The notes below the pieces were generated by a model. It was not told the DNA's origin, did not search any database, and worked only from the letters and a program-made list of their open reading frames with translations. The position numbers and the translations under genes were made by a program. 47,623 nucleotides of DNA, from the sequence record PQ850630.1, one strand, 5' to 3'. This document shows, one piece after another, positions 20,293 through 21,169 of this stretch; the stretch's first letter is position 1, and each line of letters begins with the position of its first letter. The stretch is from Escherichia phage TanjaMuster_Bas81.

Positions 20293-20412
20293 ATGGGTTC
20301 AACAAACGGTCCATCTCGTTCACGCGCTACTGGCAACACAAAAACTGGCGGCAAAACTGGCGCAGTGAAGCCAAACGGTTCTACCCGCTCACCGTCGCGC
20401 GGTAAAAAATAA
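20293..20412 (+). CDS. small basic Gly/Ser/Thr/Lys-rich peptide (39 aa)
   Basis: manual translation MGSTNGPSRSRATGNTKTGGKTGAVKPNGSTRSPSRGKK; TAATG overlap with next gene. Confidence 0.3.
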   Translation: MGSTNGPSRSRATGNTKTGGKTGAVKPNGSTRSPSRGKK

Positions 20413-20852
20413 TGTTCGGCGCAGATGTTGCCATCATGATCATGTATGTGTTGGGTTTTGCCTGCACTGGCATGGTCGCGTTTCTGGTGTTCATTCCGGC
20501 AATGGTGATGTCTGTGTATCTTGGATGGGTGCTTGTTGATTCATTTCCCGCCGAATATCTGTATTACATTGCGCAGTCTATGGTCTGGTTGTTTCCGGCT
20601 ATAGAGCTGCGCAAAAGTACAAAGATGGCGCTCTGCGTGCTGACGATGAGCCTTTACGAATGGCTGGTTGCGATAGAGTCATTCGTATGGGAATTTATCA
20701 CGCCTGTAGAAACGCCGCTTCATGCGCAGTACGCATTTATTATTATCGGCATCCATCTGTTCATCCTTTCCATCACTTTTAAATGGGGCGGCGAAATTGG
20801 ACATTATTCTTGGCGTGGTCGCCATTGTTTTTTCGCTGATTCAAATCTATAA
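20412..20852 (+). CDS. polytopic membrane protein (about 4 TM)
   Basis: 146-aa track ORF, strongly hydrophobic. Confidence 0.5.
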   Translation: MFGADVAIMIMYVLGFACTGMVAFLVFIPAMVMSVYLGWVLVDSFPAEYLYYIAQSMVWLFPAIELRKSTKMALCVLTMSLYEWLVAIESFVWEFITPVETPLHAQYAFIIIGIHLFILSITFKWGGEIGHYSWRGRHCFFADSNL

Positions 20853-20884
20853 GTGCTGGAAACATATCATCAGCGAGACACGCA

Positions 20885-21169
20885 ATGAACGGGACACTAA
20901 GGCAAATCGCAGAGCAGATTATAAGCGGAACGACAGGACAGGTGATTGATAAGGCTGGATACGCTTCTATTGGCACAGGTATCGGTCTGAAGGTTGCAGA
21001 GCAAACACCTGTCACGCAATCTTATTTTGAGGCTATGATTCCACACAGCCTGACAGAATGGGCGGCAGTAGCGTCAATCCTCGGCGCTCTGTCTCTGGTA
21101 ATAAAGAACCTGTTTGAAATGTGGTGGAAGGTACGGGAGTCGAAAAAAAATGGCAGCACCAACACCTGA
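20885..21169 (+). CDS. hypothetical protein with C-terminal TM anchor
   Basis: 94-aa track ORF; WAAVASILGALSLVIKNLF hydrophobic segment. Confidence 0.4.
   Translation: MNGTLRQIAEQIISGTTGQVIDKAGYASIGTGIGLKVAEQTPVTQSYFEAMIPHSLTEWAAVASILGALSLVIKNLFEMWWKVRESKKNGSTNT

What the first reader, a model, noticed from the sequence alone, without database searches (positions are those of the whole stretch)
20293..21169. Cluster of a 39-aa basic low-complexity peptide and two membrane proteins immediately upstream of the neck genes
A Gly/Ser/Thr/Lys-rich 39-aa ORF (20293..20412), a four-TM protein (20412..20852) and a C-terminally anchored protein (20885..21169) lie at the head of the neck/tail operon under an extended -10 promoter. 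Membrane proteins are unexpected among virion assembly genes; they could be an injection/ejection or superinfection-exclusion module.
Basis: seen in the sequence. Interest (0 to 1): 0.4.

Follow-up and report, generated by a model that had tools for sequence, protein, structure and literature searches.

The report
Small membrane-protein genes before phage neck genes
A Salmonella/E. coli tailed phage carries, just ahead of its neck genes, four (not three) small genes for inner-membrane proteins and a basic peptide, one of them a hidden overlapping gene never annotated before; they are not virion parts, two are dispensable in the lab, and the conserved pair looks like an accessory lysis-timing (holin-like) module.

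Summary
The window is a Skatevirus-type siphophage genome. The 39-aa basic peptide gene, the 4-TM gene and the C-terminally anchored gene all show protein-coding selection and lie directly upstream of the neck genes, behind a conserved extended -10 motif.

New: a fourth gene, found in no annotation I inspected. It is a +1-frame ORF (TTG 20797..20949, 50 aa, N-terminal TM helix plus charged tail). It overlaps the 3' end of the 4-TM gene, fills the 32-nt "intergenic" gap and overlaps the start of the 94-aa gene. Its pN/pS is 0.25, against 1.78 for the overlapped tail of the 4-TM gene. It recurs in every diverged relative examined, and stands free in Klebsiella phages that lack the 4-TM gene.

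The conserved core is this hidden ORF plus the 94-aa protein. Distant relatives of the 94-aa protein hit holin families, always below curated thresholds. Genome-reduced mutants of phage seszw lacking the 4-TM gene and the hidden ORF are viable. A relative's virion proteome found the neck proteins but none of these. The "lipoprotein" label is a PROSITE artefact.

Best reading: a non-structural inner-membrane module, most likely an accessory holin/antiholin-type lysis-timing device. This function is inferred, not shown. Superinfection exclusion is not excluded. Interest is moderate.

The parts
20254..20262 (+). Extended -10 promoter-like motif TGCTAAAAT (TG at 20254-55, hexamer TAAAAT at 20257-62), 30 nt upstream of the first ATG
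   Evidence: Read from the sequence. TGnTA(A/C)AAT is conserved 28-31 nt upstream of the ATG in 7 diverged lineages, and the motif TGATAAAAT is present upstream in Klebsiella phage BUCT610. The -35 is poor, so the generic scan did not list it. Activity was not tested.
20293..20412 (+). 39-aa basic G/S/T/P/N-rich peptide gene with the motif GS[ST][NQ][GS]P[SG]R at both ends. Its stop overlaps the start of the next gene (TAATG).
   Evidence: pI 12.0. Codon-position variability is 11/7/31. Matches PHROG 34767 at E=1e-25. The motif is conserved at both ends in most lineages examined; L053 keeps only the C-terminal copy and L047 has no clear homolog. Its last 6-11 codons are dispensable. Absent from Klebsiella relatives.
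20412..20852 (+). 146-aa polytopic inner-membrane protein (4 TM by TMHMM on the E1 ortholog), with conserved polar residues E48, E83, E89, E100, H104 and H115. Residues 131-146 are unconstrained.
   Evidence: PHROG 14688. TMHMM features in the E1 record. AlphaFold pLDDT 84.7, dropping to 42-55 after residue 130. pN/pS is 0.25 for codons 1-123 and 1.78 for codons 131-146. The family has about 59 clusters, all from phage genomes of roughly 45-50 kb. Deleted in viable seszw mutants.
20781..20801 (+). Block AAATGGGGCGGCGAAATTGGA, invariant at the nucleotide level. It reads KWGGEIG in frame 0 and holds the SD-like GGGG/GGCGG and the TTG start of the hidden ORF in frame +1.
   Evidence: No variable site in 36 distinct sequences. 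ATGGGGCG followed by TTG is kept in 9 diverged lineages. GGCGGCGAAATTG is kept in Klebsiella phage BUCT610, where the 146-aa gene is absent.
20797..20949 (+). Hidden overlapping gene in the +1 frame with a TTG start: 50 aa, MDIILGVVAIVFSLIQIYKCWKHIISETRNERDTKANRRADYKRNDRTGD. It has an N-terminal TM helix and a charged tail. It overlaps the 146-aa gene by 56 nt, spans the 32-nt gap (20853-20884), and overlaps the 94-aa gene by 65 nt.
   Evidence: Variability moves to the +1-frame wobble position exactly here. pN/pS is 0.25 for codons 2-29. The ORF is open in all lineages, whereas the +1 frame of the rest of the 4-TM gene carries 3-19 stops per 110 codons. It stands free in BUCT610 and L052. Six exact forms are absent from a 15-billion-protein collection, and no record inspected annotates it.
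20885..21169 (+). 94-aa protein: conserved N-terminal part (GQVIDKAGYASIGTGxG), TM helix at about 59-81 (TEWAAvASIxGA), and a basic C-terminal tail. Distantly holin-like.
   Evidence: PHROG 13738. TM helix. Pfam holin superfamily II hits are all below threshold. Family members hit PHROG holin families; P0141 hits phrog_20 at E=1.4e-6. Present in 204 phage records, including 44 Klebsiella phages. Codons 29-94 are kept in all 70 seszw mutant genomes.
21150..21548 (+). First neck gene (DUF7370 head-tail adaptor-like, 132 aa). Its ATG overlaps the 3' end of the 94-aa gene by 20 nt, which suggests translational coupling.
   Evidence: Pfam PF24085 at E=3.4e-36. The start and the overlap were read. 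The same overlap or adjacency is seen in every relative, including the very distant L052.

Best explanation
The locus encodes four small, non-structural proteins made together with the neck and tail proteins: a basic 39-aa peptide, a 4-TM protein, a hidden 50-aa single-pass protein, and a 94-aa single-pass protein.

Shown:
- All four are under purifying selection.
- The hidden ORF plus the 94-aa protein form the anciently conserved core. They always lie directly upstream of, and overlap, the DUF7370 adaptor gene.
- The 39-aa and 146-aa genes are a lineage-specific addition. They have been lost in Klebsiella relatives and are deletable in the laboratory.

Inferred:
- By the positive-inside rule, both core proteins insert into the inner membrane with the N terminus out and the charged C-terminal tail in the cytoplasm.
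- The 94-aa protein is a diverged relative of class II (superfamily II) holins.
- The module works as an accessory holin/antiholin-type device. It would tune when the canonical holin (79 aa, at 9074-9313) triggers, and tie that timing to expression of the neck and tail genes.
- The 4-TM protein would act as a dispensable modulator, in the way P2 LysA does.

None of them would be a virion component.
For: Real genes:
- Codon-phase and pN/pS tests support coding in all four.
- The hidden ORF is conserved in all diverged lineages examined (nine, plus L053), and stands free where the 4-TM gene is absent.

Membrane nature:
-.

Holin link:
- 7 of 20 close family members, and 4 of 20 in a wider set, match Pfam PF04971. 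Others match PF16080 and PF10746, which belong to the same holin superfamily.
- Members match PHROG families phrog_20, 4237, 1350 and 920, all annotated as holin. P0141 hits phrog_20 at E=1.4e-6 over residues 19-113, and P0141 itself lies directly upstream of a DUF7370 gene.
- hhalign of the family profile against S21 gives P=6.5e-4 over TMD2 plus the tail.

Non-structural:
- The STGO-35-1 virion proteome found neck proteins gp51-53 but none of the cluster.

Dispensable accessory parts:
- seszw_300L.2, 260L, 180S and 2t1 lack or disrupt the 4-TM gene and the hidden ORF.
- All 70 mutant genomes keep codons 29-94 of the 94-aa gene.

Precedent:
- In P2 the lysis genes, including the 4-TM antiholin LysA, lie between the head-completion and tail-completion genes (PMC3091744).
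Against: - No holin model is matched at its curated threshold. The window protein scores 13.5 bits against a cut-off of 26.
- Only one TM helix is predicted, whereas class II holins have two.
- The genes are not next to an endolysin.
- A complete endolysin-holin-spanin cassette exists elsewhere in this genome and in BUCT610, so a second holin is not needed.
- There is no similarity between the 94-aa protein and the cassette holin.
- The tight linkage to the adaptor gene could point to morphogenesis instead.
- No lysis phenotype has been measured. The reduced burst of seszw_300L (37 against 140) is confounded by many other deletions.
- Virion mass spectrometry can easily miss small hydrophobic or lysine/arginine-rich proteins.
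Confidence: 0.4

Rival explanations
1. Superinfection exclusion or protection of progeny. Inner-membrane proteins made during infection would block DNA entry from later-arriving phages of the same or other types.
For: - They are small inner-membrane proteins and are dispensable for plaque growth.
- PHROG files the 94-aa family under 'moron, auxiliary metabolic gene and host takeover'.
- The family is restricted to one phage lineage.
Against: - No similarity to Imm, Sp, Sie or other exclusion families in Pfam, PHROGs, NCBIfam or PADLOC.
- Related phages already carry an annotated Imm-type gene elsewhere.
- The core pair is kept across very deep divergence and overlaps an essential neck gene. 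That is unlike the usual fast-turnover exclusion morons.
- Exclusion genes of virulent phages are usually early genes (my own knowledge).
Confidence: 0.2
2. A morphogenesis or ejection role. The membrane proteins would tether or chaperone head-tail joining at the inner membrane, or would be packaged and help DNA cross the envelope. The basic 39-aa peptide would bind DNA.
For: - The position between the capsid and adaptor genes never changes, and the 94-aa gene overlaps the adaptor gene, in all lineages including L052 at 32% identity.
- The peptide has S/T-P-x-basic motifs, which resemble DNA-binding SPKK motifs (my own knowledge).
Against: - None was detected in the STGO-35-1 virion proteome, although three small neck proteins were.
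- Mutants lacking the 4-TM gene and the hidden ORF make particles of normal size.
- The 4-TM protein is far too hydrophobic for a soluble virion.
- Klebsiella relatives lack both the peptide and the 4-TM protein.
Confidence: 0.12
3. The ORFs are mainly expression devices. Translation of the upstream small ORFs would serve chiefly to deliver ribosomes to the essential adaptor gene, and the proteins themselves would matter little.
For: - Start and stop codons overlap along the chain: TAATG at 20409-20413 and the 20-nt overlap at 21150-21169.
- All four seszw deletion alleles examined keep an ORF translated from the 39-aa start, and one is an in-frame fusion of the 39-aa and 94-aa genes.
- The 3' end of the 94-aa gene is never lost.
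Against: - pN/pS is about 0.25 in all four genes, including the TM helices.
- Specific residues are conserved across 30-50% identity. That shows the protein sequences themselves are under selection.
Confidence: 0.08

Closest known systems
Class II holins / holin superfamily II (phage 21 pinholin S21, PF04971; HP1 holin, PF16080; T7 gp17.5, PF10746)
   Same: The 94-aa family has a Gly-rich, weakly hydrophobic segment followed by a TM helix with a W-A-A...S-I-x-G pattern and a charged cytoplasmic tail. Weak hits recur, and among annotated families they recur to holins. T7 gp17.5 is likewise encoded among late structural genes, far from the lysozyme gene (my own knowledge).
   Different: All hits are below the curated thresholds. 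Only one TM helix is predicted. There is an extra conserved N-terminal region of about 20 residues. The gene is not adjacent to an endolysin. A separate class II holin already sits in the lysis cassette (Skate paper).
Phage P2 lysis module Y-K-lysA-lysB-lysC, especially the antiholin LysA
   Same: Membrane lysis-control genes lie between the head-completion and tail-completion genes. LysA is a separately encoded protein with four TM domains (PMC3091744); that it is about 140 aa and non-essential is from memory. This resembles the 146-aa protein, which is deletable. P2 lysC also starts in the +1 frame inside lysB, an overlapping lysis gene like the hidden ORF.
   Different: No sequence similarity to any PHROG lysis family was detected for the 146-aa protein. 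Here the endolysin and spanins are elsewhere in the genome. No lysis phenotype is known.
Superinfection-exclusion membrane proteins (T4 Imm and Sp, HK97 gp15, P22 SieA)
   Same: Small, phage-encoded inner-membrane proteins that are not needed for plaque formation.
   Different: No homology was found. Related phages carry a separate Imm-like gene. The core pair is deeply conserved and overlaps a neck gene.
Overlapping or embedded small phage genes missed by gene callers (Rz1 within Rz; hok/mok-type coupling)
   Same: A short ORF in the +1 frame with a weak start codon (TTG) overlaps the 3' end of the upstream gene. It encodes a membrane protein of about 50 aa and shows up only through comparative analysis.
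   Different: It is not a lipoprotein like Rz1. It overlaps two neighbours and bridges the gap between them. In relatives that lack the upstream gene it stands alone.

Membership tests
Holin superfamily II (Pfam PF04971 Phage_holin_2_1, PF16080, PF10746) | Scores above the Pfam gathering threshold | tested here: not met
   The window protein scores 13.5 bits, E=0.07, against a cut-off of 26. The best family member reaches E=0.001. In two partly overlapping sets of 20 members each, 7 and 4 match at E<=1.
Holin superfamily II (class II holins) | Two transmembrane domains (N-in, C-in), the first often a weakly hydrophobic, Gly/Ala-rich SAR-type helix | tested here: inconclusive
   TMHMM on the E1 ortholog predicts a single TM helix at 59-81. 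A conserved Gly-rich segment GYASIGTGIGL at 25-35 could be a weak first domain. The AlphaFold model is unreliable for residues 1-54, with pLDDT below 50.
Holin superfamily II (class II holins) | Short, highly charged cytoplasmic C-terminal tail after the last TM domain | tested here: met
   The tail is KVRESKKNGSTNT, and K/R-rich tails occur throughout the family.
Holins in general | Gene adjacent to an endolysin or spanin gene | tested here: not met
   The endolysin, holin and spanin genes are at 8637-9791, about 11 kb away. The same is true in Skate, Bas80 and BUCT610. This adjacency is not universal among holins: T7 and T4 lack it (my own knowledge).
Holins in general | Lethal, energy-poison-triggerable hole formation that releases or activates the endolysin | not testable with these tools
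   This needs expression and lysis assays.
PHROG holin families (phrog_20, 4237, 1350, 920) | Significant profile match | tested here: inconclusive
   The window protein matches only phrog_13738. Distant members of the same family match holin PHROGs: P0141 hits phrog_20 at E=1.4e-6 over residues 19-113, and others hit at 2e-4 to 4e-3. The link is therefore transitive only.
Bacterial lipoproteins (the database label of the 146-aa protein) | Signal peptide ending in a lipobox [LVI][ASTVI][GAS]C with an invariant Cys | tested here: not met
   The residues before C18 are G-F-A, which is not a lipobox. C18 is replaced by V, L, F or I in relatives. The label traces to a PROSITE PS00013 pattern hit in the E1 annotation, which also lists four TM helices.
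Superinfection-exclusion and anti-defence protein families | Profile match to a known exclusion or defence-related family | tested here: not met
   No hits in Pfam, PHROGs, NCBIfam or PADLOC for any of the four proteins.
Virion structural proteins | Detected in purified particles | tested here: not met
   The published LC-MS/MS of STGO-35-1 virions lists 18 proteins, including neck gp51-53, but none of the cluster. STGO-35-1 carries the cluster. This is weak negative evidence for such small proteins.
Protein-coding gene (the hidden ORF 20797-20949) | Purifying selection in its own frame, an open frame in diverged relatives, and a conserved start | tested here: met
   pN/pS is 0.25, against 1.78 for the overlapped frame. 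The phase of variability switches at this position. The TTG and the SD-like block are conserved in 9 lineages. Free-standing copies exist. Translation itself has not been shown.

The most novel reading that the evidence does not exclude
The hidden 50-aa protein and the 94-aa protein form a previously unrecognised two-component holin/antiholin-like pair. Their genes are physically interlocked with the head-tail adaptor gene, so lysis timing would be set by the same transcript and ribosomes that make the neck. The bipartite-motif 39-aa peptide and the 4-TM protein would be a lineage-specific regulatory layer. The pair would be a family-wide feature of the Skate/Rouf-type siphophages, missed because one partner was never annotated.
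Probability: 0.15. Interest if true: 0.6.

Novelty: new member of a known kind. Interest (0 to 1): 0.36.

Why it matters
- It adds a conserved gene to more than 200 deposited phage genomes, many of them therapy or biocontrol candidates. There the sequence is currently either an "intergenic" gap or hidden under a neighbouring gene.
- It corrects a propagated "lipoprotein" label.
- It flags a deeply conserved membrane pair outside the lysis cassette that may tune lysis timing. Lysis timing matters for burst size and for engineering reduced-genome phages.
- It shows that existing genome-reduction data already answer part of the question: the 4-TM gene and the hidden ORF are dispensable, while the 94-aa gene is never lost.

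Tried and rejected
1. Programmed +1 frameshift joining the 146-aa protein to the hidden ORF. Rejected: the hidden ORF keeps its own TTG or ATG start and exists without the 146-aa gene in BUCT610 and L052. There is no slippery site. The 178-aa fusion proteins in the databases (P0002, P0006) look like 1-nt changes near the T6 run at about 20828-20833.

2. Chance ORFs. Rejected by the codon-phase and pN/pS tests.

3. Lipoprotein. Rejected.

5. AlphaFold model of the 94-aa protein. Only the TM helix is confident.

6. Pfam, NCBIfam and PADLOC gave nothing for the 39-aa peptide, the 146-aa protein or the hidden ORF. Rfam found no RNA family inside the cluster.

7. IMG/VR scans with distant homologs of the 94-aa protein found nothing.

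8. The 94-aa protein shows no similarity to the cassette holin.

9. The phage E1 proteomics paper and the gene table of the genome-reduction paper are not held, so I read the mutant genomes directly.

10. The terminator-like hairpin at 20811-20824 lies inside the hidden ORF and is not conserved in L036, judging from the translations. I treated it as chance.
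Full report
**What the window is.** The region matches more than 190 phage records at 80-95% nucleotide identity. Most are Salmonella, E. coli and Shigella siphophages of the Skatevirus group: Skate, seszw, Bas80, Vi phage E1 and STGO-35-1. In these genomes the head genes are followed by a short block on the opposite strand (ParB-like and others). The plus strand then resumes with the cluster in question, the neck genes, the tail tube gene and the rest of the tail. A canonical lysis cassette lies elsewhere. In the window it comprises the endolysin at 8637-9077, a 79-aa holin at 9074-9313 and nested spanins at 9294-9791. The Skate authors describe a class II holin, an endolysin and spanins there (PMC6606912).

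All three ORFs are present.
- The 39-aa peptide has pI 12.0, with 9 K/R and no acidic residues.
- The 146-aa protein is strongly hydrophobic. The deposited annotation of its 95%-identical E1 ortholog lists TMHMM helices at 12-34, 49-66, 73-95 and 105-127.
- The same E1 annotation places one helix at 59-81 in the 94-aa protein.
- Downstream come DUF7370 (E=3e-36), a phrog_797 protein, a Neck1/HK97-gp10-like protein and a tail terminator (E=1e-40).
- The extended -10 is TGCTAAAAT at 20254-20262. The same motif sits 28-31 nt before the first ATG in seven diverged lineages, and TGATAAAAT is present upstream in a Klebsiella relative. Its activity is untested.

**All are real genes.** Among 30 distinct alleles of the 39-aa gene, variable sites fall 11/7/31 by codon position. 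The peptide is more than low complexity. It carries GS[ST][NQ][GS]P[SG]R at both ends in most lineages, including Yersinia phage P400. The more distant L053 keeps only the C-terminal copy, and L047 has no clear homolog. Codons 1-123 of the 146-aa gene have pN/pS 0.25, against 0.95 when the same DNA is read in the +1 frame. Codons 2-22 of the 94-aa gene also give 0.25.

**A fourth, hidden gene.** The +1 frame contains an ORF from TTG 20797 to the stop at 20949. It encodes MDIILGVVAIVFSLIQIYKCWKHIISETRNERDTKANRRADYKRNDRTGD: an N-terminal TM helix and a charged tail. I compared 36 distinct sequences with no indels.
- Variability peaks at the frame-0 wobble position up to codon 123 of the 146-aa gene.
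- It vanishes completely over 21 nt (20781-20801, AAATGGGGCGGCGAAATTGGA).
- It then peaks at the +1-frame wobble position through the tail of the 146-aa gene and the 32-nt "intergenic" gap.
- It switches to the wobble position of the 94-aa gene after 20885.

The selection figures agree. pN/pS is 1.78 for the 146-aa tail in its own frame, but 0.25 for hidden-ORF codons 2-29. The part of the hidden ORF that overlaps the 94-aa gene is unconstrained (1.24). In nine diverged lineages, with the 4-TM protein down to 32% identity, a TTG preceded by ATGGGGCG opens a 42-50-codon ORF with a TM helix. The +1 frame of the rest of the 4-TM gene carries 3-19 stops per 110 codons.

Free-standing copies confirm it. 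In Klebsiella phage BUCT610 the 39-aa and 146-aa genes are absent; only a GGEIGY...FAGS remnant of the 146-aa 3' end remains. The hidden ORF stands alone there in an unannotated 230-nt "intergenic" region, between the same promoter motif and the 94-aa gene. In the very distant L052, an ATG-started small TM ORF precedes the 94-aa homolog, with no 4-TM gene. Six exact forms of the protein are absent from a 15-billion-protein collection, and no record I inspected annotates it.

**Core versus accessory.** The 94-aa protein occurs in 204 phage records, including 44 Klebsiella phages as well as Vibrio and Aeromonas phages. The 146-aa protein occurs in only 102, none of them Klebsiella phages. In a library of 1.84 billion representatives, the 94-aa profile finds only 26 proteins. 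The one distant member whose locus includes downstream sequence again sits directly upstream of a DUF7370 gene; the other locus ends at the gene. The adaptor ATG at 21150 overlaps the 3' end of the 94-aa gene by 20 nt. The conserved unit is therefore hidden ORF, then 94-aa gene, then adaptor gene. The peptide and the 4-TM gene are an addition specific to the Skatevirus branch and its nearest relatives. In P400, L047 and L048 the cluster follows the capsid genes on the same strand, so it belongs to the late structural region.

**Deletion data already exist.** Phage seszw, whose wild type is identical to L012, was subjected to CRISPR-based genome reduction (PMC9825161), and the mutant genomes are public. 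Coordinates below are window equivalents.
- seszw_300L.2, the smallest genome, lacks 20412-20844. That removes the whole 4-TM gene and the start and TM helix of the hidden ORF.
- seszw_260L lacks about 20395-20866.
- seszw_180S lacks 20378-20969, which makes an in-frame fusion of the 39-aa and 94-aa proteins.
- seszw_2t1 has a 100-bp deletion inside the 4-TM gene.

All 70 mutant records keep codons 29-94 of the 94-aa gene, and all keep the promoter plus codons 1-28 of the peptide gene. The 4-TM protein and the hidden ORF are thus dispensable for growth in the laboratory. The TM part of the 94-aa gene is never lost, either because the protein matters or because its translation feeds the adaptor gene. 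The peptide gene is unannotated in seszw and so may never have been targeted.

**Virion proteomics.** STGO-35-1 carries the cluster. Its LC-MS/MS virion proteome lists 18 proteins, including the three small neck proteins just downstream, but none of the cluster (PMC8954984). This is negative evidence only, and it is weak for proteins this small.

**What they resemble.** The 146-aa protein and the peptide match nothing annotated. The "lipoprotein" name comes from a PROSITE PS00013 hit in the 2008 E1 annotation. There is no lipobox, and the cysteine is not conserved. The AlphaFold model of the 146-aa protein is confident (pLDDT 84.7) up to residue 130 and disordered afterwards, matching the unconstrained tail. 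Fold searches returned only generic helical bundles and uncharacterised phage membrane proteins.

The 94-aa family gives recurrent sub-threshold hits.
- In Pfam, the only family matched by more than three members is PF04971 (7 and 4 of 20); PF16080 and PF10746, from the same holin superfamily II, are each matched by one or two members. The remaining hits are scattered over unrelated families matched by one to three members.
- In PHROGs, members hit four families annotated as holin.
- The strongest hit is P0141 against phrog_20, E=1.4e-6 over residues 19-113.
- No curated threshold is met, only one TM helix is predicted, and there is no similarity to the cassette holin.

**Interpretation.** I regard the following as established:
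- there are four real genes, one of them newly found;
- three of the four proteins are inner-membrane proteins;
- the core pair is anciently conserved and interlocked with the adaptor gene;
- the 4-TM gene and the hidden ORF are dispensable in the laboratory.

No evidence places any of the four in the virion, but that evidence is negative and weak.

Function is inferred only. The holin-like signal, the TM-plus-charged-tail architecture of both core proteins and their co-expression with late genes favour an accessory holin/antiholin-type lysis-timing module (about 0.4). So does the P2 precedent, where lysis genes, including the 4-TM antiholin LysA, lie between the head-completion and tail-completion genes. 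The alternatives are superinfection exclusion (about 0.2), a morphogenesis or ejection role (about 0.12) and a mainly translational-coupling role (about 0.08).

**Novelty and interest.** The three annotated genes were already in the databases as hypothetical proteins. The new elements are the hidden gene, the recognition of the conserved pair, and the link to published deletion and proteome data. Accessory membrane modules and overlapping lysis-type genes are known kinds, so I rate this a new member of a known kind and of moderate interest.

Noticed in passing
window 22809-22884 and 22891-22978 (- strand): Two tRNA genes, Arg-TCT and Ser-GCT, lie on the minus strand between the tail-terminator gene and the tail tube gene. 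Relatives carry different tRNAs at this spot: Met in Bas80, Ile in Skate, Ser in CECAV_048.
   Followed up: partly
window 17905-20174 (- strand): A block of non-structural genes on the opposite strand (beta-clamp-like, ParB-like and small ORFs) separates the head genes from the cluster. It is absent in Yersinia phage P400, L047 and L048, where the cluster directly follows the capsid genes. A leftward TTGACG-17-TATAGT promoter-like site at 20245-20217 is back-to-back with the extended -10.
   Followed up: partly
STGO-35-1 gp38 (17,239-18,057 in NC_054648); possible window equivalent 18877-19686: The published virion proteome of STGO-35-1 lists a 272-aa 'hypothetical' protein with 6 unique peptides and 24.6% coverage. 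By its size and position it looks like the ParB-like protein. A ParB-like protein in particles would be unexpected. I did not verify the identity.
   Followed up: no
L054 (Salmonella phage PHA46_2, PP216514.2), window equivalents 20598-20724, 20959-21147 and 21174-21370: This deposited 'complete genome' has three deletions of 127-197 bp within 1 kb. They truncate the 4-TM gene, remove the TM helix of the 94-aa gene, and remove half of the DUF7370 adaptor gene. It is either an assembly artefact or a natural variant that would challenge the importance of the 94-aa protein.
   Followed up: partly
P0002 and P0006 (178 aa; 23 member sequences); window about 20828-20833: Database proteins fuse the 146-aa protein to the C-terminal part of the hidden ORF (...RGRHCFSLIQIYKCWKH...). 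This fits a 1-nt length change near the T6 run. Whether these are sequencing errors or real variants is unknown.
   Followed up: no
window 21548-21673 (+): A 41-aa ORF with a hydrophobic stretch (MTTGQIKVKVGVRKYCLWAMAILALLRIPVPKWMFVVEKSS) fills the gap between the adaptor gene and the next neck gene. It has close homologs in L008, L032 and ASO78B. Skate and seszw have an unrelated 49-aa ORF in the same slot.
   Followed up: partly
L055 (Klebsiella phage BUCT610) 1970-2200: The 230-nt 'intergenic' region holds the unannotated hidden ORF. In another frame it also holds a remnant of the 3' end of the 146-aa gene (GGEIGYSNRRYRHSVFAGS). This shows that the Klebsiella branch lost the peptide and 4-TM genes by deletion.
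   Followed up: yes
window 8637-9077 compared with Skate 8292-9024: The window has a single 146-aa lysozyme-type endolysin without an N-terminal hydrophobic (SAR) segment. Skate and Bas80 annotate two 'endolysin' ORFs (92 aa and 154 aa) at that position. The lysis cassette is therefore mosaic, while the cluster studied here stays constant.
   Followed up: no
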